Assembly (NCBI GenBank): GCA_963662715.1
Contig: OY759724.1
Location: 930,001-962,000, forward strand
DNA: 32,000 bases
Origin: Candidatus Omnitrophota bacterium
GTDB lineage: Bacteria; Omnitrophota; Gorgyraeia; Zapsychrales; JANLHA01
Direction of reading: 5' to 3'
Within the stretch, counting starts at the first letter, position 1, and the number at the start of each line of letters is the position of its first letter. Made by a program: the position numbers and the translations under genes. Positions 7,821 through 26,928 of the stretch are shown here, in pieces. Under the pieces are notes generated by a model that had not been told where the DNA came from, searched no databases, and worked only from the letters and a program-made list of their open reading frames with translations.

Positions 7821-10796
7821 TTACGAACCGCAGCATTTCTTGTATTTTTTTCCGCTCCCGCAAGGACAAGGGTCATTCCGCCCGACCTTGGGGCCGCTTT
7901 TATGGATCGGCTGGGGTTTCGGCGGCTGAGCCTGCGGCGGTTCTTTCCCTGCTGTCTGCTGAGGGGCGGGCTCCCCTGAAAAACTTGAAATCTCATCGTG
8001 CACAAGATTCTGCGGCAAATCGCTGAACACGCTTCTCATGCGTGCGCTCCGGTCCGGAGGCAAAGGCTGAACTTTAAAAATAATCTCAACGACTTCCTGG
8101 CTGATGGAGCTGAACATCATCTGGAACATTTCATAGCCTTCTCTTTTATACTCAATCAAAGGATCCCGCTGACCGTAAGAACGCAGCCCCACCCCGCCTT
8201 TAAGCTGATCCATCGCATAAAGATGGTCTTTCCATTTCGCATCAAGCGTATTCAATAAAACGACTTTTTCCAGCCTCCGGATATTTTCCGCACCGAAATC
8301 ATTTTCTTTCTGACGGTAAATATCCTGCAGGCCCTGCATAATCAGGTCCTTGATCTCCTCGGGGTTCATGCTGTCCAGCCTGTCCCGGATGAGAGCAAGA
8401 TCATAACCGAAATTCGAATGCAGGGCCACCTGAAGTCCGTCGATATCCCAAGGGACTTCATCCTGGCCGGTGAAAAGGTGCTGGTCGACTAATGACGGGA
8501 CCGTTTCTTCCATCGCTTCCATGATGCGGTCCTTGACATTATCGCTTTCCAGAATGCTGCGCCGCAAACCGTAAATCGCTTCCCGCTGTTTATTCATGAC
8601 ATTATCATATTCCAAAAGCTGTTTCCGGAACTCGAAATTCTGCGTCTCGACCCGCTTCTGCGCCACTTCAATGGCCCGCGTCACCCAGGGATGCTCAATC
8701 ACCTGCCCCTCTTCCATCCCCAGTTTCTCCATAAGCGTCATAATGCGGTCCGAAGCAAACAGGCGCATCAGGTCATCCTCCAAAGCGACAAAGAAACGCG
8801 ACGACCCGGGGTCACCCTGGCGTCCGGACCGGCCGCGCAGCTGGTTGTCGATACGCCGGGACTCATGCCGCTCGGTCCCGATCACGTGCAGACCGCCCAG
8901 GTCAACGACCTGCTGGTGTTCTTTCTGCACCTGCTCCCGGAACTGGGCCAGAAATTTCTGCACCAATGATCCTTTCCGGGTTTCGTCCGCATCCTCTCCC
9001 GCCTCTTTTTCCGCCAGACTCTTTGCCAAGAACTCGGCGTTCCCCCCCAGGACAATATCCGTCCCCCGTCCGGCCATATTCGTGGCGATGGTCACGGATT
9101 TATAGCGCCCGGCCTGTGCGACGATCTGCGCTTCCGACTCATGATATTTCGCGTTCAAAACCTGGTGAGGGATCCCCCTCTGCTGCAACAGGGCGGACAG
9201 ATACTCGGACTTTTCAATGGAAATCGTCCCCACAAGCACCGGCTGGCCGCGTTGGTAGCAGTCGACGATTTCCTCGACCACGGCCTGGAACTTTTCCCGC
9301 ACGCTTTTATAAATGCAGTCCGAATGATTCTTCCGCATAAGCGGGCGGTTCGTCGGCATAACAACACAGTCCAGTTTATAAATCTGGCTGAACTCGGTGG
9401 CTTCGGTGTAAGCCGTACCCGTCATCCCGGACAGTTTTTCATACATACGGAAATAATTCTGGAAAGTGATCGTGGCTAAAGTCTGGTTCTCCCGCTCAAT
9501 CTTGATCCCTTCCTTCGCTTCGACAGCCTGGTGCAGGCCGTCGCCCCAGCGGCGGCCCGGCATAAGACGCCCGGTAAATTCGTCGACGATCAAAACCTGC
9601 CCGTCCCGCACGACATAATCGACGTCGAATTTAAAGAATTCTTTCGCTTTCAGCGCCTGCAGAATATGGTGCCGGTACTCAATCGTTTCCATGTCATGTA
9701 GGTTGTCAATCCCGAACTGCTTGGCCGCCTTTTCCTCCCCCTGCTCGGTCATGGAAATAGACCGGTTCTTTTCATCGGCCACATAATCGTACCCGATGGA
9801 CAGATCAATGTTTTTGTACTTCGCGTCAATCTCTTCCTGCTCGGTGATCCGCCGCCCTTTCAGACGCTTGGCGATATCGTTGGCCGTGTAATATTTATCC
9901 GTCGACTCTTCGGCGGGCCCGGAAATAATCAACGGGGTCCGGGCTTCATCCACGAGGATGCTGTCAACCTCATCGACAATGGCAAAATGGTACTGGCTCT
10001 GCACCATGTCCTCCTTGGAGATAACCATATTATCCCTGAGATAGTCAAACCCGAATTCATTGTTCGTCCCGTAGGTGATATCACAGGCATATTCCTGCTG
10101 GCGCTGCGCAGGGTTCAGGTCATGAAGAATGACCCCGATGGAAAGGCCTAAAAACTCAAAAACCGGGCCCATCCACTCCCGGTCCCGTCTGGCCAGGTAA
10201 TCATTGACCGTAACGACATGCACGCCCTCCCCGCTTAGCCCGTTCAGGTAAGCCGGAAGCGTTGCCACCAGAGTTTTCCCTTCCCCGGTGGCCATTTCCG
10301 CGATCTTGCCTTCATGCAGCATCATGCCGCCCAGAAGCTGGATATCATAATGCCGCATCCCTAACGTGCGCTTGGCCGCCTCCCGGACGGCGGCAAAAGC
10401 TTCCGGCAGAATTTCCCGCAACGAGGCCTGCCGGAGCTTCTTCAATTCCTCTCTAATGGCGTCGATCTGTATATTATAATCGTCCCGCTCTTCATTCGTC
10501 ACCGCCTGCCGGAAAAGCTCCTCGGTCTTCGCCAGCTCCTCCTTCTTTTCCCTCGTCGCGTTCCGGTACTTTTCCCTGAACTCTGCGGTCTTGGCTTTGA
10601 GCTCCGCTTCAGAATAAGCCTCAAATTGAGGCTCCAGGGCATTGATCTGAGCGACAGTCTTGCTCATTTTTTTGATCGTGGATACGGACGGCAGCGGCAG
10701 GTCCAGCGGCAAATGAATATTGACTTTGGGTTCAAGTTTGTCGATATAGGCCTGGGCACGCCTGACAATAAATTTACCTAAAAAGAAATCAAACAT
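7821..10796 (-). CDS. secA: Preprotein translocase ATPase SecA
   Basis: Walker [10 protein letters not shown]; DEAD-like box [20 protein letters not shown]; [24 protein letters not shown]; C-terminal zinc finger [23 protein letters not shown] upstream. Confidence 0.97.
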
Positions 10797-10847: not shown

Positions 10848-11949
10848 TCAGTTTCCCGCCCCGGGCTTCCATCGTAAAAAAGCATCGATAAACAGACTTA
10901 AGTCACCGTCCATGATGCGGGGGACATTGCCGGTCTCCACGTCTGTCCGGTGGTCTTTCACCATGTTATACGGGTGCATCACGTAGGAGCGGATCTGGCT
11001 GCCCCACTCAATTTTCTGTTTTTGCCCGTACTCCTTCGACATCCGCTCTTCCTGTTCCTTGCGTTTCTTTTCGTACAAGCGGGCCTTAAGGATTCTCATG
11101 GCCATTTGTTTATTCTGCAGCTGAGAGCGTTCGTTCTGGCACTGAACCACGATGCCCGAAGGCAAATGCGTGATCCGCACGGCGGAATCCGTTGTGTTGA
11201 CGGACTGACCGCCGGGGCCGGATGAACGGAAAATATCAATCCGCAAGTCATCCGGATTAACCTCAACTTCAACATCATCCGCTATTTCCGGGATCACATC
11301 CACGGACGCGAATGAAGTGTGTCTTCTTTTATTGGCATCAAAAGGCGAAATACGCACGAGCCGGTGCACGCCTTTTTCGCCCTTCAGGTATCCGTAGGCG
11401 ATATCGCCTTCAATGCGCAATGTCACATTCTTTATCCCGGCCTCTTCCCCGGGGAGAATATCCGTCGTCGTGACCTTATATTTCATGTTCTCCGCCCAGC
11501 GCATATACATGCGCAAAAGCATGTTCGACCAGTCACACGACTCCGTACCCCCGGCACCGGCATTAATACTCAGGATGGCGTTGTTCTGGTCAAAAGGGCC
11601 GGACAGCAAAGATTTGTTTTCCAGAGAATCGATCTCTTTCCGCAAACCCGCCAGGTCCGCTTCAATCTCCTGCATAGACGACTCTTCGCCTTCTGATAAT
11701 TCCGCCAGTTCCTGCAGTTCATCCAGCTTTTTAGAAATTTCATTACAAGGCTCAACGCAGGATTTGAGAAACTTCAATTCCCGCATGACCTTGTTGGCCG
11801 CTTCATTATCATCCCAGAAATCGGGCTGGGCCATTTTCTGCTGAATGGCCTCAATGGCTTCCTGCTTCTGGGAGAGGTCAAAGAAACCCCCTAAGTTGAT
11901 GGAGTTTTTTCTTAAGGATATCTATTTGTAAATGAATATCACTAGGCAT
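10848..11949 (-). CDS. prfB: Peptide chain release factor 2, made by a programmed +1 frameshift (frame 0: 11949-11881; frame +1: 11879-10848)
   Basis: SPF tripeptide (RISPFD) and GGQ (SGPGGQSVN) are present. The track ORF lacks the N-terminus. By hand, upstream MPSDIHLQIDILKKKLHQLRGFL ends at an in-frame TGA, and the +1 frame continues DLSQKQEAIEAIQQKMAQPDFW into the track ORF. Confidence 0.93.
11877..11892 (-). promoter_or_regulatory. prfB: prfB autoregulatory +1 frameshift site
   Basis: The minus strand reads AGG GGG TTT CTT TGA C. This is an internal SD-like AGGGGG, a 3-nt spacer and the slippery CTT before TGA-C. The architecture matches E. coli AGGGGGTATCTTTGAC. Confidence 0.9.
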
Positions 11950-12077: not shown

Positions 12078-13595
12078 CTAAGGCCCTTTTTTCTCAAAAA
12101 TAAAAATAACCGGAGCCACGGTCGGAGCCCGACCTTTCAGCCTGTATCTAAGCTTCCCGATACTCTTGACCTGCCGGTACCCTTTCCTTTCCAGGAAATC
12201 CTGAAAAGGTGATCCCCCGGGACGAATCAAGACATCCTCCTCTTTGCCCCAGTTATCCAAAACAAGAATGACATGGCCGGAGGCTGTTTCTAAAAGTCCC
12301 TTCACTTCGTCGCGGTTTTTCGGGAATTCGATTAATTGTCCGCCGAACCTTGCAAAATTCACCCCGCTGTAATACCGGATAAACCTCGGGGAATTGGCTA
12401 TAATCACGGTCTCCGGCCGGGCGTTCTGCCGCACCCAGGAGCCCGCGTCCGGGAACCCGAGGTAGAACTTCCGTTCTTCCGACAGAGTATGATGCGTTTC
12501 CGGATACTGAATCCCGGCGATAAAGCACACCAGCCCGAGCATCAGCCAGCGCACCATACTTTTCTTCTCTTTCGAAAAAAAGAATTCCATAAGCGCATTC
12601 ACACCCAGAGCGGCAAAAACAATCAAGGCCGGCAGGTAGACCAGGCTGTACCGGAAAAGACGTTCCGCGGCGCATGACAGGGCAACCATAAAAACGATGC
12701 CCCAGGAAAACAGCAATACAGCGACGGGTTTATTATCCCCTTTCAACAGGGCCGCCATGCCGATGAGGGCCAGGACGGTCAGCATGGCAGAGCCTAATAG
12801 ATCATTCATCCCCAGGACGTAAAACCATCTTGAAGCCGGCTCTTTGGTGGTTTCCAGCAAAGCCGACATGTCGGGAAGACAGGTGCCTAACTGAATGCGG
12901 TTATTCAGCAATAAAAGGAAAGCCGTCCCCAGGATGACGGACACCGGCCGCACCAGTTTTCGGATCCGCTCTTTGCCGCTTAGATTTTTCAACCCTAAAA
13001 GATAAAACACCGTTATCAGGATTACGACAACGGCTCCCGACCATTTCGTCAGCACGAGAGCCGCCCCGGCTCCGCCCAGATAAAAATCCAGCCTTTTCCC
13101 CTTTTTCCCGGAGACCTCCAGCAGAATAAGCGCCGCCAGCATCATCAAAAGCATGAACAGGCTGTCGCTCAGAATTTTTGTTGAAAACTTCAGAAACGTG
13201 GCATTGAACGACAGCAGGACGGCACAGATCAAACCGCCGAAAGGATCCATTATTCTCCGGCCCAGAACATACATCATCAGAATACAGAGCAGGCCGATGA
13301 TCAAAGATACGATGCGGCAGGCCGGCAGCGCAGGGTGGAACAGGCTCCCTGCGGCCAGGACACCGCTGAACAACGGAGGATGAAATTCATTGACTTCCGC
13401 CGAAAACAACAGCAGGGGATTCCCGGCTATCCTCATAGCGTTCCAGGCATATAAAGCCTCGTCGGCCCACAGCCGTTCCTGGAACATGAACTTTATTCTG
13501 ATCAGCAAAGACATGACCAGCAGGGCGGTTAACGCCAGAGCATAGCCGTATTTTTGAAAAGAGACCGGTAGACCTTGATTAACGTTCTTGTTCAT
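12078..13595 (-). CDS. GT-C fold membrane glycosyltransferase, PMT_2/ArnT-like (GT39/GT83-type)
   Basis: 505 aa, about 11-12 TM helices. The first periplasmic loop has RLWADEALYAW ... HPPLF, the DE ... hPPL signature of ArnT/PMT-type enzymes. A C-terminal soluble domain is present. Confidence 0.8.
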   Translation of the reverse strand: MNKNVNQGLPVSFQKYGYALALTALLVMSLLIRIKFMFQERLWADEALYAWNAMRIAGNPLLLFSAEVNEFHPPLFSGVLAAGSLFHPALPACRIVSLIIGLLCILMMYVLGRRIMDPFGGLICAVLLSFNATFLKFSTKILSDSLFMLLMMLAALILLEVSGKKGKRLDFYLGGAGAALVLTKWSGAVVVILITVFYLLGLKNLSGKERIRKLVRPVSVILGTAFLLLLNNRIQLGTCLPDMSALLETTKEPASRWFYVLGMNDLLGSAMLTVLALIGMAALLKGDNKPVAVLLFSWGIVFMVALSCAAERLFRYSLVYLPALIVFAALGVNALMEFFFSKEKKSMVRWLMLGLVCFIAGIQYPETHHTLSEERKFYLGFPDAGSWVRQNARPETVIIANSPRFIRYYSGVNFARFGGQLIEFPKNRDEVKGLLETASGHVILVLDNWGKEEDVLIRPGGSPFQDFLERKGYRQVKSIGKLRYRLKGRAPTVAPVIFIFEKKGP

Positions 13596-15459
13596 TGATC
13601 GATGGACGGTTGATTTTAAAAAGCCAAAAGTCGTGACGTTCTTTGTGTATGAGTGTAAACAAAGGGGAATGCTTTAACCCGGCGAGCTTTTTCGACACGA
13701 CTTCTTTGCCGAACTCCTTCACGGCCCGTTCACTGACGACAATATATTCATAGTCATTCCCGGCAAGACGGGAATAAAGGGTATCCGGGTCCAGCTCAAT
13801 GGCATCGTGAAACGAGTCCTGATAAGCCCTGGTCCAATAGTCGCTGGCCATGTCGTGGCCGATCACCAATTTGTTATCAACAAACGTAAAAACCCGGGAC
13901 CCGGCTCTGATATTCCGGCGCATCCAAACGAACCCTTTCATTTCATGATACGATCCCCAGGATATCCCGTAATCCCAGAGATCATTATTCACGACAAATT
14001 TCGGATATGCGGACGTCAGCAGAACAGCGGTGATCAAAAACCCTGCCTTCCTTTTATGAAACCGGCTTTTGTCCGTGGTGACACAGTCGACCCCCTCCGC
14101 CGCAAAAACACAAACAGGGACGGCGAGCAGGGGCCAAAACCGGTAGGCGAATAAACCGACCGGCAGAGAAAACGTTTTGGAATTCAGCCCCAGAAACGTA
14201 AAAGCGAGCCATAAAAGCATCGTTGAATAATACTCCCGCTCCTGACGGTCTCCCCGGGCCAGCCGGTACAGGCCTTTGCCGATGCCCAGAAGCGTAAGAA
14301 GACTGACAGCGAGGCCGAACCCCATCGGGCAATTATAATCATTGTACAGCGGGGGAAAAAGGTAATTCTCCATGGAATACTTCCGGGTCGTGCTTCCGGT
14401 GCCGGGGTTAAAGAGCCTCCGCTGAATCGTCGTCACAGCCTGAGCCCCTCCCACATCTTCGTTCAGGACGGTCGTCTTCAGCTTTAACTGTCCCGAGCGG
14501 TATGATTGATAGACCGGCACATACCAGGCGGCGGATATCAGAACGGCGGTCAAAGGCACCGCAACCAGGCGCAGAGGGATCTTTTTCCTTATCAAAAGCA
14601 TACCGGCGTACCACAGAGCCAGCATGACCATAAACTTAACAGGCTGCGTGGGCTGGACCAACAATATACCGGCTGTCACCATGACGGCAGATAAGAAAAA
14701 CCGGGCGTCTTCCCGGCATTTCCAGACACAATAAAACCCGACGAGGAACAATGTAACGGCCAGGGAATGCGCCCAGATAAAATGGCTCAGATAAGCCGGG
14801 ACGGCGGCCAGGAAAAACGCGGCCCATAAAGAGCGCGCGGAATTTTTCGTTAAAGCGTTGATAAAAAAGTAAAAAAACAGGATGCCCAAAGCGATGATCA
14901 AACCGTTAAAAAACTTCAGGGTCCAGTACAGAGACGGGGACGTCTGGTGCATTAAAGCCATGACCAGATCGTACCCCGGAGGATACGGATTGATATACTG
15001 AAACAGCCCGGAATCCGCGTTCAAATTCTTTTCCACCATTATATAGGCCGTGCCTGCGGCATGATGCCAGGGATCGTCATCTTCCAGCCAGGAATAAGTA
15101 AACGCCCCGCCGCAGTACATGACAACGCAGAATATAAAAATAACGGCCAGACATAATACCTTCTTTGTGAATTTAAGATCTGCAGGGACACGGCTTTGCT
15201 TTTTCCGTCCGCGGATATAGTCGGTGACGGGAAAAACAACCGCCAAAAACAAGAAAACCGTCCAGTGAAGGGGCACACCCAACAGGTTAAGCCACACCCC
15301 CAAAACAGGAACCGCGGCTAAACCTATGCCGACGCGCATTATAATGATTTCAAAATTAAGGGCCTGAACAAAACGGGTCAGGGCGTAGCCCAGACCATAG
15401 GTATATACGAAAAACAAAATAATGTTGGCTAGACTGGAGAGAACGTTAAATAGGGACAT
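13579..15459 (-). CDS. Large GT-C-like polytopic membrane protein with oligosaccharyltransferase-like motifs (function uncertain)
   Basis: 626 aa, more than 12 TM helices and a ~135-aa C-terminal soluble domain. Loop motif WLEDDDPWHH (15090-15061) is followed by NPYPPGYD. LWDYG (13980-13966) comes directly after the last TM helix. Overlaps the downstream GT-C gene by 17 nt. Confidence 0.7.
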   Translation of the reverse strand: MSLFNVLSSLANIILFFVYTYGLGYALTRFVQALNFEIIIMRVGIGLAAVPVLGVWLNLLGVPLHWTVFLFLAVVFPVTDYIRGRKKQSRVPADLKFTKKVLCLAVIFIFCVVMYCGGAFTYSWLEDDDPWHHAAGTAYIMVEKNLNADSGLFQYINPYPPGYDLVMALMHQTSPSLYWTLKFFNGLIIALGILFFYFFINALTKNSARSLWAAFFLAAVPAYLSHFIWAHSLAVTLFLVGFYCVWKCREDARFFLSAVMVTAGILLVQPTQPVKFMVMLALWYAGMLLIRKKIPLRLVAVPLTAVLISAAWYVPVYQSYRSGQLKLKTTVLNEDVGGAQAVTTIQRRLFNPGTGSTTRKYSMENYLFPPLYNDYNCPMGFGLAVSLLTLLGIGKGLYRLARGDRQEREYYSTMLLWLAFTFLGLNSKTFSLPVGLFAYRFWPLLAVPVCVFAAEGVDCVTTDKSRFHKRKAGFLITAVLLTSAYPKFVVNNDLWDYGISWGSYHEMKGFVWMRRNIRAGSRVFTFVDNKLVIGHDMASDYWTRAYQDSFHDAIELDPDTLYSRLAGNDYEYIVVSERAVKEFGKEVVSKKLAGLKHSPLFTLIHKERHDFWLFKINRPSINEQER

Positions 15460-15465
15460 TGCAGT

Positions 15466-15495
15466 AATATATCATATGGCGGACAGGTCTGTCTA
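15466..15495 (-). promoter_or_regulatory. Candidate promoter giving a leaderless or near-leaderless mRNA for the GT-C operon
   Basis: Minus strand: TAGACA (15495-15490), 18 nt, TATATT (15471-15466), 6 nt, ATG (15459). No SD is present before this ATG. Confidence 0.4.
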
Positions 15496-15496
15496 G

Positions 15497-15553
15497 TGGG
15501 ACCGGGTCCCTCTAAAGTTCTAAACACTATTGAGTTACGAGAGAAGTGTCCCC
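15497..15553. repeat. Left arm of the bipartite inverted repeat (outer block A, 26-nt spacer, inner block B)
   Basis: GGGACCGGGTCCCTC at 15498-15512 and GAGAGAAGTGTCCCC at 15539-15553. Both are exact reverse complements of the blocks at 16426-16440 and 16385-16399. Confidence 0.9.
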
Positions 15554-15637
15554 AAACACTTCCCTGTTCTAAAACTTTCCTGCCGCGGGATAATAGCCGT
15601 CAAGGAACAGGAACCCGCCCTCTCATCTTCTTCTCTT

Positions 15638-15964
15638 TCACCTTCTGGCGGCATAATTAAAATGATCAAAATAGCTGCGCCATAATGTTTCCGTGGAAGA
15701 GAATTGGTTTGTTCCGCAGAAATAATCAAGAAGGCATTCTCTTAAACGGGTAAGTTCTTTACGGCGGGGCAAAGTGTTGAGCGAGGCCAAAGTCAAATCA
15801 ATTAATTCCAGAGCCCGGTAAAATGCTTTTTGAGAATAAAGGTCATTCTTTTTCTTCTGCCAGTTTAACGCCCGGCTAACCTCGCTGCCAATATGCGCCA
15901 TCTGTTCGACCAAAGGCATTTGGCTCCAGCGCCCTGCGGCAAGATCTTTATGTTGAACTGTCAT
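15638..15964 (-). CDS. 108-aa predicted helical protein of unknown function (second gene of the cassette)
   Basis: Intact ORF whose ATG overlaps the stop of the upstream gene (ATGA at 15961-15964). From memory, the sequence type (..HIGSEVSRALNW.KK.N....KAFYRALELIDLT..) recurs as an unannotated hypothetical protein in other uncultured bacteria. Confidence 0.7.
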   Translation of the reverse strand: MTVQHKDLAAGRWSQMPLVEQMAHIGSEVSRALNWQKKKNDLYSQKAFYRALELIDLTLASLNTLPRRKELTRLRECLLDYFCGTNQFSSTETLWRSYFDHFNYAARR

Positions 15965-16302
15965 CTCGGTATCCTCTTTAAAACAATATCGAAAATCCTT
16001 TTTCGAATATGTTCATCATCTACCCCGCGGCTCATATTGTTCTGTGAAGGGCGCAAATTGATCATTGAATCGAATTCCACAAAATTTTCCAAAGACAAAT
16101 CCGGATAAAGATTTATCCCCCAAAGGCTTTTTTGTTGCGAGCCCCTTTCAAGCAGGAGGGCTTCCAGGTCAGAATGCAACTCAGCGTTTAATCCTATAAT
16201 CTCTTTATCAACATCAACGACAGCTTTGACCATGTCTCCGAACAAATCCTGAGCCATGACTTTTAACTCTTCTAAAGATAATGTTGTATCAACGATTTTC
16301 AT
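15961..16302 (-). CDS. DUF5674-like protein (first gene of the cassette)
   Basis: 113 aa with the blocks FGDMVKAVVD, ELHSD.EALLLE.GS.Q..LWGINLYP and EFDSMINLRPSQ.N.SRGV, which I recognise as the DUF5674 family pattern. No SD; a candidate leaderless promoter lies directly upstream. Confidence 0.75.
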   Translation of the reverse strand: MKIVDTTLSLEELKVMAQDLFGDMVKAVVDVDKEIIGLNAELHSDLEALLLERGSQQKSLWGINLYPDLSLENFVEFDSMINLRPSQNNMSRGVDDEHIRKRIFDIVLKRIPR

Positions 16303-16308
16303 GGAATC

Positions 16309-16337
16309 ATTTTAAAGGATATTGTTTTTATTATCAA
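16309..16337 (-). promoter_or_regulatory. Candidate promoter giving a leaderless mRNA for the two-gene cassette
   Basis: Minus strand: TTGATA (16337-16332), 17 nt, TAAAAT (16314-16309), 6 nt, ATG (16302). Confidence 0.35.
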
Positions 16338-16384
16338 CAATTACCCCTCCCCTCTGAATTATTATGTAAATCACCTTGCGGCTC

Positions 16385-16441
16385 GGGGACACTTCTCTCT
16401 CAACTTGATCAAAGGCAACAGGATGGAGGGACCCGGTCCCA
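16385..16441. repeat. Right arm of the bipartite inverted repeat (inner block B', 26-nt spacer, outer block A')
   Basis: GGGGACACTTCTCTC at 16385-16399 and GAGGGACCCGGTCCC at 16426-16440. The spacer length is identical to the left arm. Confidence 0.9.
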
Positions 16442-16485
16442 AAAACTAAAAAAATCCTCTTTCGAAAAAACAAAAGAGGATTTTT
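16441..16485 (-). terminator. Rho-independent terminator downstream of the CapD/PglF-like gene (hairpin is symmetric, possibly bidirectional)
   Basis: An 11-bp stem pairs AAATCCTCTTT (16452-16462) with AAAGAGGATTT (16473-16483) around a 10-nt loop. On the minus strand it is followed by TTTTTTTAGTTTTT. Confidence 0.6.
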
Positions 16486-16509: not shown

Positions 16510-18429
16510 TCAACCGCGTTCCATCTCCCTGATAAGCTCGGGATCGTCCGTATTCCCCCACCGGAGAATCTCCAAAGCATTGGTTTTCGAAGCGTTTTCT
16601 TGAGAATTAAATTCCGGCACAACCTGCTTCATTTTACTCAGCACGCCCGGAATGTCCCTCACATCAGCCAGCTGCCACAGCTCTTCCACATCACGGAACA
16701 GCTTTTCCTTGTCAAAACTCCGGGGCTTCTCCACGTAAATCTGATTATTCGCAGTCTTCTGCACCCCCTCCTGAGAGGTCAGCAATTCTTCATATAACTT
16801 CTCTCCCGGCCTCAAACCGACAATCTCGATCTTAATATCTCTATCCGGCTCAAAACCCGACAACTTGATCAAAGACTTGGCCATATCCAGGATACGCACC
16901 GGCTCACCCATCTCTAAAACATATATCTCCCCGCCCCTGGCCATGGCCGCCGCCGTCAGCACCAGCTGTACAGCCTCGGGGATCGTCATAAAATACCGCA
17001 CAACGTCCGGGTGAGTCACGGTCACCGGCCCGCCCTGGGCGATCTGCTTCCGGAACAGCGGCAGGACACTGCCGTTACTGTCGAGCACGTTTCCGAACCG
17101 CACCGCGCTGAACACCGTATCGCTATGCCCGTTCAAAGACTGGATCACCATCTCTGCCAGCCGTTTACTGGCCCCCATGACATTCGTCGGGTTCACGGCT
17201 TTATCCGTTGAAATCATCACAAACCTTTTGACCCTGTGCTTCATCGCCAAGGTCGCGATATTATACGTCCCCCAGATATTATTTTTTACAGCCGCGTCAA
17301 TATTCCTCTGCATCAGCGGCACATGTTTGTAAGCCGCCGCATGAAAGACCACCTCCGGCTTAAACTGTTCAAAAATGTGATCCATCTTATTTTTATGCTG
17401 AATATTGGCCACCAGCGGAACATGCAGAGGCTGGACATTTTTCCTGAGAGCTGAAAGCTCCATATCAATGGAATAAACATGATGTTCAGAGCTGTCCAAA
17501 AGGATCAGCTGTTTCGGCTGATACCCGCTGATCTGCCGGCACAGTTCAGAACCGATCGACCCGCCGGCCCCGGTGACCATAATCACTTTCCCGCGCAGGT
17601 ATTTTACGATCTCCTCCCGGTCGGCTAAATTAGGCTCCCGGCCCAGAAGATCTTCCGGCTCAACATTTCGGATCTCGCTGATATTAACAGACCCGTCCAA
17701 GATCGACACCAAAGACGGCACTTTTTTAACTTCGGCATCGGTCATCTCGCAGAGCGTCACGATGCGCCGCATCTCGTCACTATGGGCGGACGGGATGGAA
17801 ATAATGATCATCTCCACATGTTTTCTTTTAACGATCGACCTGATGTCTGCTGTCGTGCCCAGCACCGGGATCCCGTGAATAAGGCTGCCCTTTTTAACCG
17901 GATCGTCATCCACAAAACCGACCGGATGATACTGGGCATGCTCGGCCCTTAAAATATCCCGCACCAGGCCTTCACCGGCATCCCCGGCGCCTACGACAAG
18001 GATCCGTTTGGCCGAATCCTGATTGCCGGTCCTTTTCCAGGAATACAAGGTATGGATAGCCAGCCTTAAACCCGTGGTAAACAATACCGCCAAAACCATC
18101 CCCAGCAGAATAACGATCCGCGGGAACGTCCAGTGATGGATAAAATACAGCACCAGCATATAAATGGATACGCTTAAAGCCACGCCGCCGAAAAGACGGA
18201 TGACATTTTTAGCGGTCATGTAGCGCCAGTCATGATGATAGAACTGGGACCGGGAAAACACCGTGAAACTGATCATGGAGTACAGCAAAAACGTGTGGAG
18301 GTACATATCCCGCCAAGGAGACGGAACGGCAAAATCGAAACGCAGCACCAAAGCCAAAAAAAGTGCGAGATTAATAACAATCATATCGCATACCATCAAA
18401 AATCCCCGGCTCTTCATAAGACGCTTCAT
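16510..18429 (-). CDS. Membrane-anchored UDP-GlcNAc 4,6-dehydratase family protein (CapD/WbpM/PglF type)
   Basis: Four N-terminal TM helices and two Rossmann segments (VVGAGDAG and VTGAGGSIGSEL). The catalytic region STDKAVNPTNVMGASKRLAE is typical of polysaccharide biosynthesis protein CapD. Confidence 0.9.
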   Translation of the reverse strand: MKRLMKSRGFLMVCDMIVINLALFLALVLRFDFAVPSPWRDMYLHTFLLYSMISFTVFSRSQFYHHDWRYMTAKNVIRLFGGVALSVSIYMLVLYFIHHWTFPRIVILLGMVLAVLFTTGLRLAIHTLYSWKRTGNQDSAKRILVVGAGDAGEGLVRDILRAEHAQYHPVGFVDDDPVKKGSLIHGIPVLGTTADIRSIVKRKHVEMIIISIPSAHSDEMRRIVTLCEMTDAEVKKVPSLVSILDGSVNISEIRNVEPEDLLGREPNLADREEIVKYLRGKVIMVTGAGGSIGSELCRQISGYQPKQLILLDSSEHHVYSIDMELSALRKNVQPLHVPLVANIQHKNKMDHIFEQFKPEVVFHAAAYKHVPLMQRNIDAAVKNNIWGTYNIATLAMKHRVKRFVMISTDKAVNPTNVMGASKRLAEMVIQSLNGHSDTVFSAVRFGNVLDSNGSVLPLFRKQIAQGGPVTVTHPDVVRYFMTIPEAVQLVLTAAAMARGGEIYVLEMGEPVRILDMAKSLIKLSGFEPDRDIKIEIVGLRPGEKLYEELLTSQEGVQKTANNQIYVEKPRSFDKEKLFRDVEELWQLADVRDIPGVLSKMKQVVPEFNSQENASKTNALEILRWGNTDDPELIREMERG

Positions 18430-20676: not shown

Positions 20677-21326
20677 AACGCATATTTCTCCCTGAATAAT
20701 TTTACAGAATTATGTTCTTTCACCGGCCATATTTTGCCCAAAGGGATCAGCACCCAGACTGTCTGCACCAAAATCAGCAAATCGAAAAAAAACGAATTCT
20801 TCCGCACATGCTCCAGGGCCAAATCCACCTTTAAAGGCACGACCACTTCATCATAAAACTCATCGGCATTCTTAACTTTTGCCAGGATCTCCTCTTCATG
20901 CCGGAAATGCAGTGTGGCGACACTGGTGATACCCGGCCGTACCGAAAATATACGCTTCATCTCCGGCGTGTATTTCGCGGTGATTTCCGGCACATCCGGC
21001 CGCGGCCCCACAAAACTCATGTCGCCTTTAAGCACATTAAATAACTGGGGCAGTTCATCAAGCTTGGTCTTGCGCAGGAATCTCCCCACGGGCGTAATGC
21101 GGGGGTCAACCCCGGTTGTCACCGACGTCCCCAGAGTATCGGCTTTGTCGACCATGGTGCGGAATTTGTAAACATCAAATATTTGTTCGTGCAGCCCCAC
21201 TCGCTTCTGCGCGTAAATGACCGGCCCCTGCGACGTCAGTTTGATAAGCACGGCCGTGACGCCCATAAGCGGAGCAAACACCGCCAGCCCAAATAGCGAA
21301 AATATAATGTCAAAAAGGCGTTTCAT
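20673..21326 (-). CDS. Small monotopic phosphoglycosyl transferase (bacterial sugar transferase; PglC/WcfS-like initiating enzyme)
   Basis: 217 aa. Re-entrant helix MKRLFDIIFSLFGLAVFAPL, then KFRTM, the LDELPQLFNVLKGDMSFVGPRP catalytic DE dyad and the PRP motif. Confidence 0.9.
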   Translation of the reverse strand: MKRLFDIIFSLFGLAVFAPLMGVTAVLIKLTSQGPVIYAQKRVGLHEQIFDVYKFRTMVDKADTLGTSVTTGVDPRITPVGRFLRKTKLDELPQLFNVLKGDMSFVGPRPDVPEITAKYTPEMKRIFSVRPGITSVATLHFRHEEEILAKVKNADEFYDEVVVPLKVDLALEHVRKNSFFFDLLILVQTVWVLIPLGKIWPVKEHNSVKLFREKYAL

Positions 21327-21581
21327 AGATCTTTATTATTACACAAAAATTTATTTCGATTATCCATTCTCCTGTTGCATGGACAAACTGCATAACAAGA
21401 TTTCCAGCATCATCTAAAATTCCCACGACACCAAATCGAGGTTCGTTAAATTAAATTTAAGCAAAAAACAGCAAAATAAACATTTGAAAGGATTTTTCTA
21501 AAGACACAAATAGTCTTTTGTAAATGTAATACATATTTATATCAGTTCTAGAGAAGACTTTTTAAACAGCGCACACACGAT

Positions 21582-22640
21582 CTAAATAATAAGCCGTGGC
21601 ACTTTGTAGCCGCGATATTTTATTAAAAATTTTGGTATATTAAACATACCAGCCAAGGTGCCAACGCCATATGCAAAATGGATTAAGAAAAAAGTGCCTG
21701 GCAACATACAACACAAGGGTTTTACATCCTTATTAGCTTCCCTCATAGCCCGGAACGAGAAAAAAACAGCGCAAAAGAAATAGATCAATATCAAAATAAC
21801 GAGTGGGACAACATTCTTCAGCATTGCAAAAATTAGACTCACTAAACATGCAAACACAAAAATAGCAGGGACAAAATGACGAGCACAAAAACATTTTGGA
21901 GAAATTGATGCTGTTATGGCTATCCAATAACCAGTCCCAAACTTTTGCTTAAGCAACCCTGACATATTCGACCTCGGAAAATGAAAGGATACGATCTCTG
22001 GATTAAAATAAAATTTAAATCCAGCCTGTCTCATCCGATAATGAATTTCCATATCCTGATTCCGTACCAATCGTTCATCATATCCACCGACAAGAGAAAA
22101 TATGTGTTTTCGATATGCTGCGTGAGCTAATGTCTCAACATAACGCGCAGGGCCGGGATGTTTAAATCCGGCGGCTCCGGCTCCGAATCTGGATTCTTCT
22201 GCTAAAGCAAAAAAAGCTGGCCACTTTTCATTTGGCACACGACTGACCCTAGCCCCCCCCACGATACTTTCCCCCCGGGAAATGGCATCAACATTCTTAC
22301 GAATAAAGTCCCGAGGGATACGGCTATGAGCATCCACTCGCAAGATGACTTCCCCTTTCGCATGCGCAAGAGCAACATTCCACCCAGCTGATAATATCTT
22401 GCCTGGATTGGACAGAATTTTGAAAAACAAGTCTGCATGATGAGATTGAAAATCGTAAATTATGTTTAAAGAGTTATCCGTTGAACAACCATCAACGCAC
22501 AAAATTTCAAACTTGTCATGCGGGTAGTCTTGTTCAGAGATATCGGTCAATAGGTCTGCCAAACTACACTCCGCATTTCGAAACACAATAATAAATGTAA
22601 CCAACATCACGGGACAAAGGTCGACTTTCTCATTACTCAT
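21582..22640 (-). CDS. Family 2 glycosyltransferase with a C-terminal TM region
   Basis: GT-A signature V.FIIVFRN....L...L..I..QDYP....EIL.VDG.STD and ILRVDAHS, with three or four hydrophobic helices at the C-terminus. Low-GC gene. Confidence 0.85.
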   Translation of the reverse strand: MSNEKVDLCPVMLVTFIIVFRNAECSLADLLTDISEQDYPHDKFEILCVDGCSTDNSLNIIYDFQSHHADLFFKILSNPGKILSAGWNVALAHAKGEVILRVDAHSRIPRDFIRKNVDAISRGESIVGGARVSRVPNEKWPAFFALAEESRFGAGAAGFKHPGPARYVETLAHAAYRKHIFSLVGGYDERLVRNQDMEIHYRMRQAGFKFYFNPEIVSFHFPRSNMSGLLKQKFGTGYWIAITASISPKCFCARHFVPAIFVFACLVSLIFAMLKNVVPLVILILIYFFCAVFFSFRAMREANKDVKPLCCMLPGTFFLIHFAYGVGTLAGMFNIPKFLIKYRGYKVPRLII

Positions 22641-22760
22641 TGTTATTTAAAACTCTCCATATCAAGATTATTTCCAACAATTCTATGCTAAAAATTATTC
22701 CAATACGAATAAAATTTCAACATGAAATACTTTATAAAAAAAGACAACATAAATACAGAT

Positions 22761-23654
22761 TCATTGAGAGCAGGTACGACGGTTAATTTCTTCAAGTTTA
22801 TATAACGGCCGTAAAAATTCAAAGGACTTCTGCAATAAATTGCGACAAGGATACGTTGCACAAATGATACCAGCTGTTACAGGATGATAATGAATTTGTA
22901 GCCCCATTGATTGTTTTCTAAAACCAAATTTTGAGATAAGGACTTCCTGAACTCGAGTAGCATGACTTAAATTGCGAAATCCACTATTTACATACTGAAA
23001 CTTTTGCACATCAAGATAATATTTATTTCTTTCATAAAAAAGTATCGCACTAGGATTAAGCCGCAAGTAATCAGGATCGAATTTGGTCATTGAATAATTG
23101 GCCTCGATTTTATCATACAGATAAACCTGTGAATACGCAATTAACCTACCGGATTCTTTTTCAAAAACTCCCCAACAATCTACAATATCCTCAAAACCAA
23201 TCGCTGCCAGCATATTTTGTTTAAATTGCCTCTCTGTTTTAACTAATCGCGTGTTTCTATAGCGCTTAAAAGCTGAAGAAAAAACAGGCCATGCATTTTC
23301 CGCAATAAATTTCACGCTGACTTTTCGAACTTCACATTTATTTGCCCCACGAACGATTTCTTTTCTTATTTTTCCTCTCATCTTCATAATATGTTCAACA
23401 TTATCACAAATAACAGAATACCATCCATTAGCAATCTCACTAAACCCTGTAGTACTTCGAACCAATATCGCTGGGCTTAATTTATGCAATAAGAACTTAG
23501 CGGCTGTACGTGAAAGGGAAAAATTATCTATCGCTGGGCCGACAGGAACTATCATGTTTTGATAATATACCCACAAATTATCATCTAAAAAGAATGCCCT
23601 TCGTCCTTGTTCCTTAAAAAGGTCAAAATATCGACGATTAACCTCAAGCTTCAT
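22761..23654 (-). CDS. FemAB/CelD-like GNAT-superfamily acyl or aminoacyl transferase (paralog 2; family assignment tentative)
   Basis: 297 aa. The pattern RK.I.R......V.K, GRLIAY...Y.....ANYS..K.DPDYL.L.P..ILFYE and NSGFRNL......QE.LISKFGF resembles Acetyltransf_6/FemAB-type proteins. Clearly paralogous to the upstream gene. Confidence 0.55.
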   Translation of the reverse strand: MKLEVNRRYFDLFKEQGRRAFFLDDNLWVYYQNMIVPVGPAIDNFSLSRTAAKFLLHKLSPAILVRSTTGFSEIANGWYSVICDNVEHIMKMRGKIRKEIVRGANKCEVRKVSVKFIAENAWPVFSSAFKRYRNTRLVKTERQFKQNMLAAIGFEDIVDCWGVFEKESGRLIAYSQVYLYDKIEANYSMTKFDPDYLRLNPSAILFYERNKYYLDVQKFQYVNSGFRNLSHATRVQEVLISKFGFRKQSMGLQIHYHPVTAGIICATYPCRNLLQKSFEFLRPLYKLEEINRRTCSQ

Positions 23655-23700
23655 AACCCTTTATCCTCAAAGGATATATTCATTTAAATATAATATCCGA

Positions 23701-24591
23701 TCACTTATTATTGTTCATAAATTTATTTATTTTATCAAATTTTTGCAAAGCAGATAAGGGTGGGCATGTTTGCCGGAACAAAACATAAAATGGTTCCAAC
23801 AGATTCAATCCTTTAGCAACGAAAGGTCTATAGCAAACTTGCAATCCTACGGGTTGCTTTTTATAAGAATATTTTTTTATAAGTAATTCTTCAATATTAG
23901 TTTCATGCAACAAATTTCTAAATCCAGAGTTAAGATAACTAAACTGTTGTTCCTCCAAATAATATTTATCCATTTCATAAAAAAGTGCCCAGCCAGGATA
24001 AAGATTAAGAAAATCAGGATGAACTTTTATAGTTGAATAATTAACTTCAATTTTCCCATAGCAATAATTTTGCGCATAAGCAATCAACCGACCTGTCGCG
24101 TTTTCAAAAGCACCCCAATATTGCGAAACATCTTCAAAACCAACAGGGACAACATTTCGCCTGAATTCTCTTTCTGATAGTGTTGTCCAAGGATTTTTAT
24201 GTAATTTAATAGCAGACGAAAAAATTGGCCAAGCTTTTTGTCTTATAAGCTCTGGATCGATCTTCTGTGTAGTACAGAATTTTAATCCCTTTCGAGTTTT
24301 ACTTCTTGCCTCTTTGCTAGCCATATCTGCGACAGGAATAAACTTATCTCTTATTACACAATACCATTCTTCAGGAAAATCGACAAAACCAGTCGTCGAT
24401 CTAACAAGTATTGCGCTTTTAAAATATTTCAATAAATTCCTAAAATCTTTAACAGAAATAGAATAATTTTGACTTACTGGCCCAACAGGAACGACCATTT
24501 TCTGATACAGAGTCCACAAATGCCCTCCTGCAAGAAAATATGGTTTACCTTGTTTCTCTAAAAATTCTTGGTGCCTTACGAAATTAAACAT
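23701..24591 (-). CDS. FemAB/CelD-like GNAT-superfamily acyl or aminoacyl transferase (paralog 1; family assignment tentative)
   Basis: 296 aa. Shares VPVGP, AILVRSTTGF, AWP.FSSA.K, GFED....WG.FE...GRLIAY.Q.Y.Y.KIE.NYS, LFYE..KYYL..Q.F.Y.NSGFRNL and GLQ..Y.P with the downstream paralog. 8-nt overlap with the GT4 gene. Confidence 0.55.
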   Translation of the reverse strand: MFNFVRHQEFLEKQGKPYFLAGGHLWTLYQKMVVPVGPVSQNYSISVKDFRNLLKYFKSAILVRSTTGFVDFPEEWYCVIRDKFIPVADMASKEARSKTRKGLKFCTTQKIDPELIRQKAWPIFSSAIKLHKNPWTTLSEREFRRNVVPVGFEDVSQYWGAFENATGRLIAYAQNYCYGKIEVNYSTIKVHPDFLNLYPGWALFYEMDKYYLEEQQFSYLNSGFRNLLHETNIEELLIKKYSYKKQPVGLQVCYRPFVAKGLNLLEPFYVLFRQTCPPLSALQKFDKINKFMNNNK

Positions 24592-25729: not shown

Positions 25730-25745
25730 AAATAAATGCCTACAA

Positions 25746-26858: not shown

Positions 26859-26928
26859 TACATTGATTCCTAAAATTAAGATAGGATTCTCTCAAGAAGA
26901 AATACTACCCATCCCAAAACTATTCAAG

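What the first reader, a model, noticed from the sequence alone, without database searches (positions are those of the whole stretch)
15497..16441. Two-gene cassette bracketed by a bipartite, equally spaced, perfect inverted repeat
- Left arm: GGGACCGGGTCCCTC (15498-15512), 26 nt, GAGAGAAGTGTCCCC (15539-15553).
- Right arm: GGGGACACTTCTCTC (16385-16399), 26 nt, GAGGGACCCGGTCCC (16426-16440).
- Both 15-mers are exact reverse complements (15/15). One more flanking T matches on the outer side.
- The spacer length is identical in both arms. The spacer sequences themselves are mostly unrelated; only AGTT next to the inner block is shared. So two short sites and their spacing are conserved, rather than a simple duplication.
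- The outer block has a 13-nt palindromic core, GGGACC-N-GGTCCC, which looks like a dimeric protein-binding site.
- The arms enclose only the two overlapping small ORFs and their putative promoter.
- The unit sits between the terminator of the CapD-like gene (the T-tract abuts the right arm) and the -35 of the GT-C operon promoter (1-2 nt from the left arm).
- There is no transposase or recombinase inside, and I see no target-site duplication.
- Possible interpretations: a non-autonomous mobile cassette mobilised in trans; an invertible segment; a pair of operators allowing DNA looping or autoregulation; or pairing between the 5' and 3' UTRs of the cassette mRNA.
Basis: partly seen in the sequence, partly recalled or inferred. 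Interest (0 to 1): 0.78.

Follow-up and report, generated by a model that had tools for sequence, protein, structure and literature searches.

The report
Transposase-associated repeats flanking a gene pair
The "bipartite inverted repeat" is real, but its two arms are copies of a 56-base repeat scattered through Omnitrophota-type genomes and tied to a domesticated tyrosine transposase (RAYT), so it is a new example of a known repeat system rather than a device belonging to the two enclosed genes.

Summary
Two arms lie at 15498-15553 and 16385-16440, with 15/15 and 16/16 complementary blocks and a 26-nt spacer in each.

Each arm is one complete 56-nt unit, 5'-GGGGACACTTC…GGGACCCGGTCCC-3'. Pattern scans found 35 such units, at roughly 21 distinct intergenic sites, in Omnitrophota/PVC contigs. 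All are 56-57 nt, have sharp ends, and none lies near a DUF5674 gene.

- In three related genomes, two units in the same inverted geometry bracket a REP-associated tyrosine transposase gene (NCBIfam 99-102 bits, cutoff 80).
- The window's own genome appears to encode one too: P0295 sits on a contig of identical length. Its C-terminus, GDTSVVT, is the translation of the unit's GGGGACACTTCT… box.
- The GGGGACAC end fits the published GGGGWSAS motif of "TIR" repeats flanking such transposases.
- The enclosed DUF5674 + 108-aa pair is conserved (~70% identity) in four other genomes, where it has no repeats.
- Neither cassette protein models as a known DNA-binding fold.

The block-and-spacing conservation is therefore a property of the repeat family, most plausibly what the transposase recognises. 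I could not exclude that this doublet carries the two genes as cargo.

Verdict: new member of a known kind, modest interest.

The parts
15498..15553 (-). Left arm: one complete 56-nt repeat unit, read on the minus strand as GGGGACACTTCTCTC-N26-GAGGGACCCGGTCCC. The GGGGACAC end (15553) faces the cassette. The near-palindromic end (15498) lies 38 nt upstream of the start codon of the 626-aa gene.
   Evidence: It matches the family profile at nhmmer E=2.5e-11 over positions 1-56.
16385..16440 (+). Right arm: a second complete 56-nt unit in the opposite orientation. The GGGGACAC end (16385) faces the cassette. The near-palindromic end (16440) lies 9 nt from the CapD-like gene's terminator.
   Evidence: nhmmer E=1.8e-10 over positions 1-56.
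15961..16302 (-). DUF5674 gene (113 aa). It is enclosed by the arms but does not belong to the repeat system.
   Evidence: Pfam PF18924, 1.9e-34. At least 8000 homologues, mostly Omnitrophota. AlphaFold2 model is alpha/beta, pLDDT 82, with no PDB fold match.
15638..15964 (-). 108-aa partner gene, overlapping DUF5674 by ATGA. It is a conserved companion of DUF5674 in other genomes.
   Evidence: No Pfam or NCBIfam hit. 768 homologues at about 62-72% identity. Adjacent to DUF5674 in L001, L002, L035-L037. AlphaFold2 model is a 5-helix bundle, pLDDT 91, with no PDB match at E<0.001.
16309..16337 (-). Promoter-like site TTGATA-17-TAAAAT for the cassette. It lies inside the right arm and ends 6 nt before the ATG, so the mRNA may be leaderless.
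   Evidence: (10 of 12 consensus matches) and the sequence. Consensus match only.
15466..15495 (-). Promoter-like site TAGACA-18-TATATT for the downstream 626-aa gene. It starts 2 nt after the left arm.
   Evidence: 10 of 12 consensus matches. Consensus match only.
16450..16485 (-). Intrinsic-terminator-like hairpin of the CapD-like gene. It has an A-tract on one side and a T-tract on the other.
   Evidence: (pair I6).
16510..18429 (-). Upstream neighbour: CapD/PglF-like polysaccharide biosynthesis protein.
   Evidence: Pfam Polysacc_synt_2 3.2e-120 and CoA_binding_3.
13579..15459 (-).
   Evidence: ORF. No Pfam hit at E<=0.1. The next gene, 12078-13595, hits PMT_2.

Best explanation
Each arm is one copy of a 56-57-nt dispersed intergenic repeat, 5'-GGGGACAYTTC…(N~32)…GGACCCGGTCCC-3'. 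The repeat belongs to a REP/TIR-RAYT system of Omnitrophota-type bacteria.

**Shown**
- The family exists at many unrelated sites.
- It always has the same two end boxes and the same length.
- In related genomes, two units in exactly the window's geometry (GGGGACAC ends inward, near-palindromic ends outward) bracket a Y1/HUH REP-associated tyrosine transposase gene.
- The window's genome very probably encodes such a transposase, and that gene's 3' end reads into a unit.

**Inferred, from the biochemistry of E. coli TnpA-REP and IS200/IS605 TnpA**
- The transposase recognises the conserved end boxes at their fixed spacing.
- It has seeded copies in trans into intergenic DNA, probably through single-stranded intermediates.
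- Selection for recognition keeps the boxes and the length constant while the interior drifts. That produces the 'bipartite, equally spaced, perfect' look.

**Consequence for the cassette**
- The DUF5674 + partner pair is an ordinary conserved chromosomal gene pair.
- It sits between two such copies, which occupy the two intergenic gaps on either side.
- The bracket is a by-product of repeat placement (solo copies or a family-typical doublet), not a regulatory or mobility device of the cassette.
For: 1. **A dispersed family.** The genome scan and metagenome scan gave 25 loci. Fuzzy matching found 35 units, 30 of them unique. All are 56-57 nt with sharp boundaries.
2. **Intergenic and unlinked to the cassette.** Units lie between genes at about 21 distinct sites, next to unrelated genes. 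tblastn finds no DUF5674 or partner gene in 218 kb of these loci.
3. **Units bracket a transposase gene.**
   - In L005, units at 8202-8257(-) and 9005-9061(+) bracket a 164-aa ORF. It scores NCBIfam REP_Tyr_transpos 99.1 bits (cutoff 80) and Pfam Y1_Tnp 2.5e-16.
   - The same arrangement occurs in L029-L031 (units at about 3751-3806(-) and 4502-4558(+); transposase P0243, 102 bits) and in L018/L011.
   - A 50%-identical transposase in L032-L034 has a variant unit, AGGGACATTTCTAACGG…, starting 5 nt after its stop codon.
5. **Its gene runs into a unit.** P0295 ends …YGDTSVVT. The L005 unit start GGG GAC ACT TCT GAC GTA ACT translates to GDTSDVT, and tblastn aligns P0295 through the L005 stop codon into the unit.
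6. **Match to a published motif.** GGGGACAC fits GGGGWSAS, reported for the long TIRs that flank 'TIRYT' tyrosine transposase genes. Those TIRs form moderately abundant families arranged as dimers or clusters (PMC3733652; PMC6006769).
7. **The cassette has no repeats elsewhere.** L001, L002, L035/36 and L037 carry neither units nor a flanking inverted repeat.
8. **Other doublets exist.** Inverted doublets with the same geometry but only 115-122 nt between the units occur in L015 (1402/1580) and L004 (996/1159).
Against: - The source genome could not be retrieved. Its copy number of units, their consensus, and the flanks of P0295 are therefore unknown.
- Only two units occur in 32 kb. They occupy adjacent gaps, in the transposase-type geometry, and share the variant TCTC at positions 12-15. 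That variant is seen in no other copy. The unit abutting P0295 has G at position 13, because valine is GTN. This hints that the two arms are related as a pair.
- The interior length (831 nt) is close to that of the transposase-bearing doublets (747 and 695 nt).
- The unit is not a classical REP. It has no stable hairpin (z-scores from -1.1 to +1.8), no covariation and no GTAG foot.
- Transposase activity on such units has never been shown.
Confidence: 0.72

Rival explanations
1. Cargo-carrying doublet. The two arms and the 831-nt interior form one unit, in effect a REPIN/TIRtron-like doublet in which a two-gene cargo takes the place of the transposase. This unit is, or was, mobilised as a whole in trans by the genome's RAYT.
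For: - The geometry is identical to the transposase-flanking doublets, and the interior length is similar: 831 nt against 747 and 695 nt.
- The arms share the otherwise unseen TCTC variant.
- All inverted pairs found so far have the GGGGACAC ends facing inward.
- The DUF5674 pair sits in different neighbourhoods in every genome examined.
Against: - Four other genomes carry the pair without any units or inverted repeat.
- No second copy and no empty site is known.
- The transposase-flanking arms are asymmetric (56-nt type on the 5' side, 57-nt type on the 3' side in L005 and L029), whereas both window arms are 56 nt.
- REPIN/RAYT systems are not known to move passenger genes (PMC3337134).
- Varying neighbourhoods are also expected from ordinary genome rearrangement at about 70% protein identity.
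Confidence: 0.12
2. Co-opted regulatory sites. The units are bound by a host protein or the RAYT as double-stranded sites. They insulate the cassette's transcription from the surrounding polysaccharide operon, or tune the adjacent promoters.
For: - About half of the distinct copies end 19-125 nt upstream of a start codon in the sense orientation.
- One subfamily carries a perfect TTGTTA-17-TATAAT abutting the unit, upstream of three different genes.
- The left arm ends 2 nt before a promoter-like site.
Against: - There is no overall orientation bias: about 10 copies are sense and about 8 face a convergent gene.
- The downstream genes are functionally unrelated.
- This is not exclusive with the best explanation. 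Co-option of REPs is well known (PMC3733652).
Confidence: 0.08
3. Invertible segment. Recombination between the arms flips the cassette.
For: Inverted repeats bracket a promoter-containing segment.
Against: - No recombinase or invertase gene is in the window. All 28 ORFs submitted to Pfam were scanned, and none hit a recombinase, invertase or transposase family.
- The identical blocks are only 15-16 nt, with unrelated spacers.
- The palindromic box has a 1-nt centre, unlike the 2-nt or 6-8-nt crossover cores of known invertase and tyrosine recombinase sites (my own knowledge).
- The same units occur singly at most sites.
Confidence: 0.03
4. Pairing between the 5' and 3' UTRs of the cassette mRNA, or operators bound by the cassette proteins for autoregulation or looping.
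For: The blocks are perfectly complementary, and the outer box is palindromic.
Against: - The best promoter-like site lies inside the right arm, so the 5' arm would not be transcribed with the cassette.
- Cassette homologues lack the boxes.
- The boxes occur at unrelated loci.
- Neither protein model resembles a DNA-binding fold.
Confidence: 0.03

Closest known systems
TIRtrons / TIRYT-associated TIR repeats (Di Nocera et al. 2013, PMC3733652; discussed by Quentin et al. 2018, PMC6006769)
   Same: - A RAYT-like Y1 transposase gene is flanked by long terminal inverted repeats that are not hairpin REPs.
- The gene-proximal end carries GGGGWSAS (here GGGGACAC).
- The same TIRs form moderately abundant dispersed families arranged as singles, dimers and clusters.
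   Different: - Most described TIRYTs fall in subclass 2.1: about 238 aa, with a C-terminal helix-turn-helix extension and YIELNP/Y[IV]HLNP motifs.
- The proteins here are 163-167 aa with NH[AV]H, WQ and YIHNNP, and no extension.
- The host phylum (Omnitrophota/PVC) and the second conserved box, GGACCCGGTCCC, at fixed spacing are not described in the passages I read.
- In the window the bracketed genes are not a transposase.
REP / REPIN-RAYT (REPtron) systems of Proteobacteria (Bertels & Rainey 2011, PMC3116915, PMC3337134; Ton-Hoang et al. 2012, PMC3333891; Corneloup et al. 2021, PMC8266576)
   Same: - A single, apparently vertically inherited RAYT gene is bracketed by inverted copies of a genome-specific short repeat.
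- The repeat is also dispersed in intergenic DNA, including as inverted doublets.
- The transposase meets NCBIfam's REP_Tyr_transpos cutoff.
   Different: - Classical REPs are 20-40-nt imperfect palindromes with a GTAG (or CGTC) foot, recognised as folded single-stranded DNA.
- These units are 56-57 nt and do not fold better than shuffles.
- They have no GTAG foot.
IS200/IS605 insertion sequences and their palindrome-associated derivatives
   Same: - The transposase is of the Y1 HUH type.
- The two ends are distinct: 56-nt and 57-nt types sit on the 5' and 3' sides of the transposase gene.
- There is no target-site duplication.
   Different: - IS200/IS605 ends are subterminal hairpins on one strand, not long inverted repeats.
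- Those elements are multicopy, together with their transposase.
- The NCBIfam IS200 model scores below its cutoff here: 23-30 bits against 55.

Membership tests
REP/REPIN-RAYT system (REPtron) | The same genome encodes a class-2 Y1/HUH transposase of the RAYT type. | tested here: met
   - P0295 (167 aa) scores 98 bits on NCBIfam REP_Tyr_transpos, cutoff 80.
- It carries HUH (NHVH) and YIHNNP motifs.
- Its longest_contig value is 3,360,633 bp, the same as for the exact copies of both cassette proteins.
- Residence in the same genome is inferred from that identity. It was not read directly.
REP/REPIN-RAYT system (REPtron) | The RAYT gene is bracketed by the repeats in inverted orientation. | tested here: met
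   - Met in relatives: L005 (8202-8257 / 9005-9061), L029-L031, and L018/L011.
- For the source genome only the 3' side is supported. The P0295 C-terminus GDTSVVT is the translation of the unit's 5' box.
REP/REPIN-RAYT system (REPtron) | The repeat is dispersed, extragenic and multicopy within a genome. | tested here: inconclusive
   - Met for related metagenomic genomes. For example, 9 exact-pattern copies lie on 6 contigs of sample Ga0310040, and units are intergenic.
- The source genome was not retrievable. Only 2 copies occur in the 32-kb window.
REP/REPIN-RAYT system (REPtron) | The repeat is a 20-40-nt imperfect palindrome that folds as a stem-loop and has a GTAG or CGTC foot. | tested here: not met
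   - Units are 56-57 nt.
- RNA and DNA folds are no better than shuffles, with z-scores from -1.1 to +1.8.
- RNAalifold finds only an invariant 5-bp terminal stem and no covariation.
- There is no GTAG. ACGTC occurs on the reverse strand of many copies but not in the window arms.
TIRtron / TIRYT-associated TIRs | A tyrosine transposase gene is flanked by long TIRs that share GGGGWSAS. | tested here: met
   The box GGGGACAC fits GGGG[AT][CG]A[CG]. It is the gene-proximal end in L005, L029 and L032.
TIRtron / TIRYT-associated TIRs | The TIRs also occur as a dispersed family of singles, dimers and clusters. | tested here: met
   - Singles are the commonest form.
- Inverted dimers occur in L015 and L004.
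- A tandem pair occurs in L004 (5455/5579).
- Clusters at kilobase scale occur in L005, L009, L010 and L015.
TIRtron / TIRYT-associated TIRs | The transposase belongs to subclass 2.1: long, with a C-terminal helix-turn-helix extension. | tested here: inconclusive
   - Length (163-167 aa) and motifs (NH[AV]H, WQ, YIHNNP) differ from the subclass 2.1 row of Quentin's Table 1.
- They look closer to the 2.4 and 2.6 signatures.
- No phylogeny was run.
Non-autonomous mobile cassette (MITE-like element with cargo) | The whole module recurs, an empty site exists, or homologous cassettes carry the same ends. | tested here: not met
   - Cassette homologues in L001, L002, L035/36 and L037 have no units and no flanking inverted repeat.
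- Recurrence within the source genome and empty sites could not be tested.
Invertible DNA segment (inverton) | A site-specific recombinase is nearby, and both orientations are observed. | tested here: inconclusive
   - All 28 window ORFs submitted to Pfam were scanned, and none hit a recombinase, invertase or transposase family.
- Orientation heterogeneity cannot be tested without reads.

The most novel reading that the evidence does not exclude
The arm-cassette-arm module is a RAYT-dependent doublet that carries passenger genes. In this reading a REPIN/TIRtron-type element has its transposase replaced by the DUF5674 two-gene pair and is mobilised in trans. That would make a domesticated Y1 transposase system a vehicle for gene cargo.
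Probability: 0.1. Interest if true: 0.65.

Novelty: new member of a known kind. Interest (0 to 1): 0.3.

Why it matters
**Practical value.** The result explains a striking-looking structure as family-level conservation of a transposase-associated repeat, which guards against over-reading such brackets as operators or invertons.

**Modest biological value.**
- It documents a REP/TIR-RAYT system in Omnitrophota/PVC genomes. A literature search found no description of one there.
- The repeat has an unusually clean architecture: two invariant end boxes, a fixed 56-57-nt length, no hairpin, and distinct 5'-side and 3'-side types around the transposase gene.
- That architecture makes it a tractable substrate for asking how hairpin-less TIR-type repeats are recognised by RAYT-like enzymes, a question the cited papers leave open.

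**If the doublet proves to move its two enclosed genes,** it would be the first cargo-bearing element of this class that I am aware of.

Tried and rejected
- **Retrieving the source genome.** Exact look-ups of both cassette proteins, P0001 and P0295 all returned 'not on record'. The listing of cluster members gave no accession. The window's own arms were not returned by the genome or metagenome scans, so the genome is not in those collections.
- **RNA element.** Rfam gave no relevant hit on L003/L004 at E<=1; the one match (snoRNA GlsR19, 18.9 bits against a gathering score of 100, E=0.83) lies in L003 away from the unit. Single-unit folds are not better than shuffles. RNAalifold found no covarying pairs. 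By eye I looked for pairing between positions 10-13 and 44-47 and between 21-25 and 35-39, but the registers shift and many copies break the pairs, so I rejected it.
- **Sigma-70 promoter inside the unit.** CTGACG resembles a -35 hexamer, but no conserved -10 follows at 16-18 nt, and the window arms lack TGAC. Rejected.
- **Orientation bias relative to genes.** My first impression was that units sit upstream of genes in the sense orientation. A systematic count gave about 10 sense and about 8 convergent, so the idea was dropped.
- **Transposase remnant inside the window cassette.** tblastn of RAYTs against the window found nothing. There is no sequence similarity between the window interior and the interiors of the transposase doublets.
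- **Synteny between the window and the transposase locus of L005/L029** (Pyr_redox_2 - RAYT - BBP2_2). Not found.
- **Function of the cassette proteins.** NCBIfam, PDB sequence search and Foldseek against the PDB gave nothing informative.
- **Viral scan.** It gave one hit with a shorter span (51 nt against 56-57), treated as unrelated and not followed up.
- **nhmmer re-runs** on the enlarged locus set did not report the new loci: one gave the same 38 hits as before, the other gave no output. I used regex matching instead.
Full report
**1.
- The sequence and the repeat finder show a 16/16 inverted match at 15497-15512 / 16426-16441. They also show a 15/15 core (21 nt at 90%) at 15539-15553 / 16385-16399.
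- Each arm has a 26-nt spacer, and the two spacers share only 9 of 26 positions.
- Neither block occurs elsewhere in the window without mismatches.
- A single perfect 15-nt inverted match within 1.5 kb is expected about 0.05 times in 32 kb. Two at the same offset is negligible.
- The arms enclose two overlapping minus-strand genes: DUF5674 (15961-16302, Pfam 1.9e-34) and a 108-aa ORF (15638-15964) with no family hit.
A CapD/PglF-like gene and its terminator lie on one side. A promoter-like site and a 626-aa membrane protein lie on the other.
- The whole window is a chromosomal segment, all on one strand. It carries SecA, prfB, Lnt and a 20-kb polysaccharide cluster. No transposase or recombinase family was hit.

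**2. The cassette genes are not what carries the repeat.**
- Both proteins have hundreds to thousands of homologues at about 60-73% identity, almost all from Omnitrophota. They are always adjacent.
- Four other genomes were fetched (L001, L002, L035/36, L037). There the pair lies after a sugar epimerase, after a tRNA gene, after ProRS, and before a class-II aminoacyl-tRNA synthetase gene (tRNA-synt_2).
- None of these has the boxes or a comparable flanking inverted repeat.

**3. The arms are members of a dispersed repeat family.**
- A scan of 185,579 species-representative genomes for both boxes with a loose gap found two loci, in an Omnitrophota MAG and a 'Planctomycetales' MAG. A metagenome scan found 23 more.
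- Fuzzy matching over all fetched DNA gives 35 units, 30 of them unique.
- Every unit is 56 or 57 nt. Each starts at GGGGAC and ends at GGTCCC, and similarity stops abruptly at both ends.
- The first 11 and last 12-13 positions are nearly invariant. The interior is only partly conserved.
- The 'bipartite, equally spaced' design is therefore a property of the family, and each window arm is one whole unit. The arms match the family profile at E=2.5e-11 and E=1.8e-10 over its full length.
- After merging orthologous sites, about 21 distinct sites remain. They lie between unrelated genes. None of the 218 kb of unit-bearing DNA encodes a DUF5674 or partner homologue.

**4. What the family is tied to.**
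- In L005, two units in the window's geometry (GGGGACAC ends inward) lie 747 nt apart. The only gene between them is a 164-aa protein that meets NCBIfam's REP-associated tyrosine transposase model (99.1 bits, cutoff 80) and Pfam Y1_Tnp.
- The same bracket surrounds the 74%-identical orthologue in L029-L031, which comes from the same MAG as L003. It also surrounds the orthologue in L018/L011.
- The transposase sits in conserved synteny (Pyr_redox_2 - RAYT - BBP2_2). This fits the single-copy, vertically inherited behaviour described for RAYTs (PMC3337134).
- A 50%-identical transposase in L032-L034 is followed, 5 nt after its stop codon, by a variant unit that keeps the first box.
- A search with the L005 transposase returned P0295 (167 aa, 56% identity). 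P0295 also passes the NCBIfam cutoff (98 bits).
- P0295 ends in GDTSVVT, and the first 21 nt of the L005 unit translate to GDTSDVT. tblastn aligns P0295 straight through the L005 stop codon into the unit. The window genome's transposase gene therefore very probably runs into a unit of this family.

**5. Comparison with what is known.**
- Di Nocera et al. (PMC3733652) describe tyrosine transposase genes flanked not by hairpin REPs but by long terminal inverted repeats ('TIRtrons', 'TIRYT'). Many of those repeats share GGGGWSAS and form moderately abundant families arranged as dimers or clusters. GGGGACAC fits that motif.
- Quentin et al. (PMC6006769) place most TIRYTs in subclass 2.1, which is long and carries a C-terminal helix-turn-helix. 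The proteins here are short and carry NH[AV]H / WQ / YIHNNP, so protein-level membership is unsettled.
- The classical REP definition (a 20-40-nt foldable imperfect palindrome with a GTAG foot) is not met. Units fold no better than shuffles as RNA or DNA. They show no covariation and match no Rfam family.
- Functionally, the closest analogue remains the REP/REPIN-RAYT system. E. coli TnpA-REP binds, cleaves and recombines its repeats in vitro (PMC3333891; PMC8266576).
- I found no paper that describes such a system in Omnitrophota.

**6. Mechanism.**
- *Shown:* the family exists, its architecture is fixed, it is physically associated with RAYT genes in three lineages, and a RAYT is probably present in the source genome.
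- *Inferred:* the RAYT recognises the two end boxes at fixed spacing and has seeded the copies in trans. Selection for recognition keeps the boxes perfect while the interiors drift. The two window copies landed in, or persisted in, the two intergenic gaps beside the DUF5674 pair.

**7. What remains open.**
- The two window arms are the only copies in 32 kb. They sit in adjacent gaps in the transposase-type geometry. They share a TCTC variant seen in no other copy, and they enclose an interior (831 nt) similar in size to the transposase-bearing doublets.
- Short-interior doublets with the same geometry exist in L015 (122 nt) and L004 (115 nt).
- I therefore keep a 10-12% probability that this is a true doublet with gene cargo.
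- Against that: cassette homologues elsewhere lack repeats. Both window arms are the 56-nt type, whereas transposase brackets pair a 56-nt with a 57-nt type. No second copy or empty site is known.
- Operator, inverton and UTR-pairing readings have little or no support.

**8. Verdict.**
- The structure is real. It is explained as two copies of a RAYT-associated TIR/REP-like repeat.
- This is a new member of a known kind and of modest interest. The cargo-doublet reading is the only route to higher interest.

Noticed in passing
window about 11880-11900 (minus strand), upstream of ORF 10848-11834: The prfB (RF2) gene shows the classic programmed +1 frameshift site, AGGGGG TTT CTT TGA C. The listed 328-aa ORF is therefore only the post-shift part of the gene.
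   Followed up: partly
window 21000-28000: G+C drops to 33-41% against about 45-54% elsewhere. The low-GC stretch covers the glycosyltransferase, EpsG and flippase genes of the polysaccharide cluster. It looks like a horizontally exchanged variable region.
   Followed up: no
window 16302 and 15459 (minus-strand start codons): Both the DUF5674 gene and the 626-aa gene start 6 nt after a good -10-like hexamer (TAAAAT, TATATT), and neither has a Shine-Dalgarno sequence. Both mRNAs may be leaderless.
   Followed up: no
window 15540-15565: The first box of the left arm is also half of a local hairpin, AGAGAAGTGT-CCCCAA-ACACTTCCCT (9 of 10 pairs). This is absent at the right arm and in the other family members inspected.
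   Followed up: partly
L005 8202-8257 / 9005-9061; L029 about 3751-3806 / 4502-4558: The two arms around the transposase gene are not equivalent. The 5'-side arm is a 56-nt type (…GTAACCAACTGTGGGAGTAAAGG…). The 3'-side arm is a 57-nt type (…CCTTATGCCGCAATG…GGC), starting 3-6 nt after the stop codon. Both types are also dispersed. This resembles the distinct left and right ends of IS200/IS605.
   Followed up: partly
L015 1551-1579 (TTGTTA-17-TATAAT directly abutting the unit at 1580); the same 22-30 nt occurs beside the unit at L009 8327-8382 and, inverted, at L004 about 1044-1075: One subfamily of the repeat carries a perfect sigma-70-type promoter fused to its GGGG end. It sits upstream of three different genes, so it may be a portable promoter.
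   Followed up: partly
L010 6432-6590 and 9244-9397: Direct repeats of about 165 nt (92% identical), each containing a unit plus an upstream terminator, flank a 2.8-kb segment. That segment carries an excisionase-like helix-turn-helix ORF and three unknown ORFs. By eye, the neighbouring genes look like HNH, Vsr and cytosine-methylase genes (not tested). This may be a small integrated island.
   Followed up: partly
L005 about 6890-7000 and 8390-8485; L013 about 950-1020; L017 about 545-610: A second, unrelated dispersed repeat (…GGGCGCTTGTTCTGAGCAAGGTCGAAGGATTAGCCCGGGGAGCTTCATT…) recurs near units. It also lies between the left arm and the transposase gene in L005.
   Followed up: no
window 16510-18429 with 15961-16302; L001 3655-5004: In two of five genomes the DUF5674 pair lies directly downstream of a Polysacc_synt_2/epimerase-type gene. 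In the other genomes it lies next to aminoacyl-tRNA synthetase or tRNA genes. The function of this widely conserved Omnitrophota pair is unknown. The AlphaFold2 models (pLDDT 82 and 91) have no PDB fold match.
   Followed up: partly
L004 5400-5640, L006 520-700, L017 420-485, L020 745-800: Several units are preceded by a shared motif, GCTTCGTTATTACTATG, and by short 'TTCGTSCTTCRT'-like reiterations. The repeat unit may extend 5' in some subfamilies.
   Followed up: no
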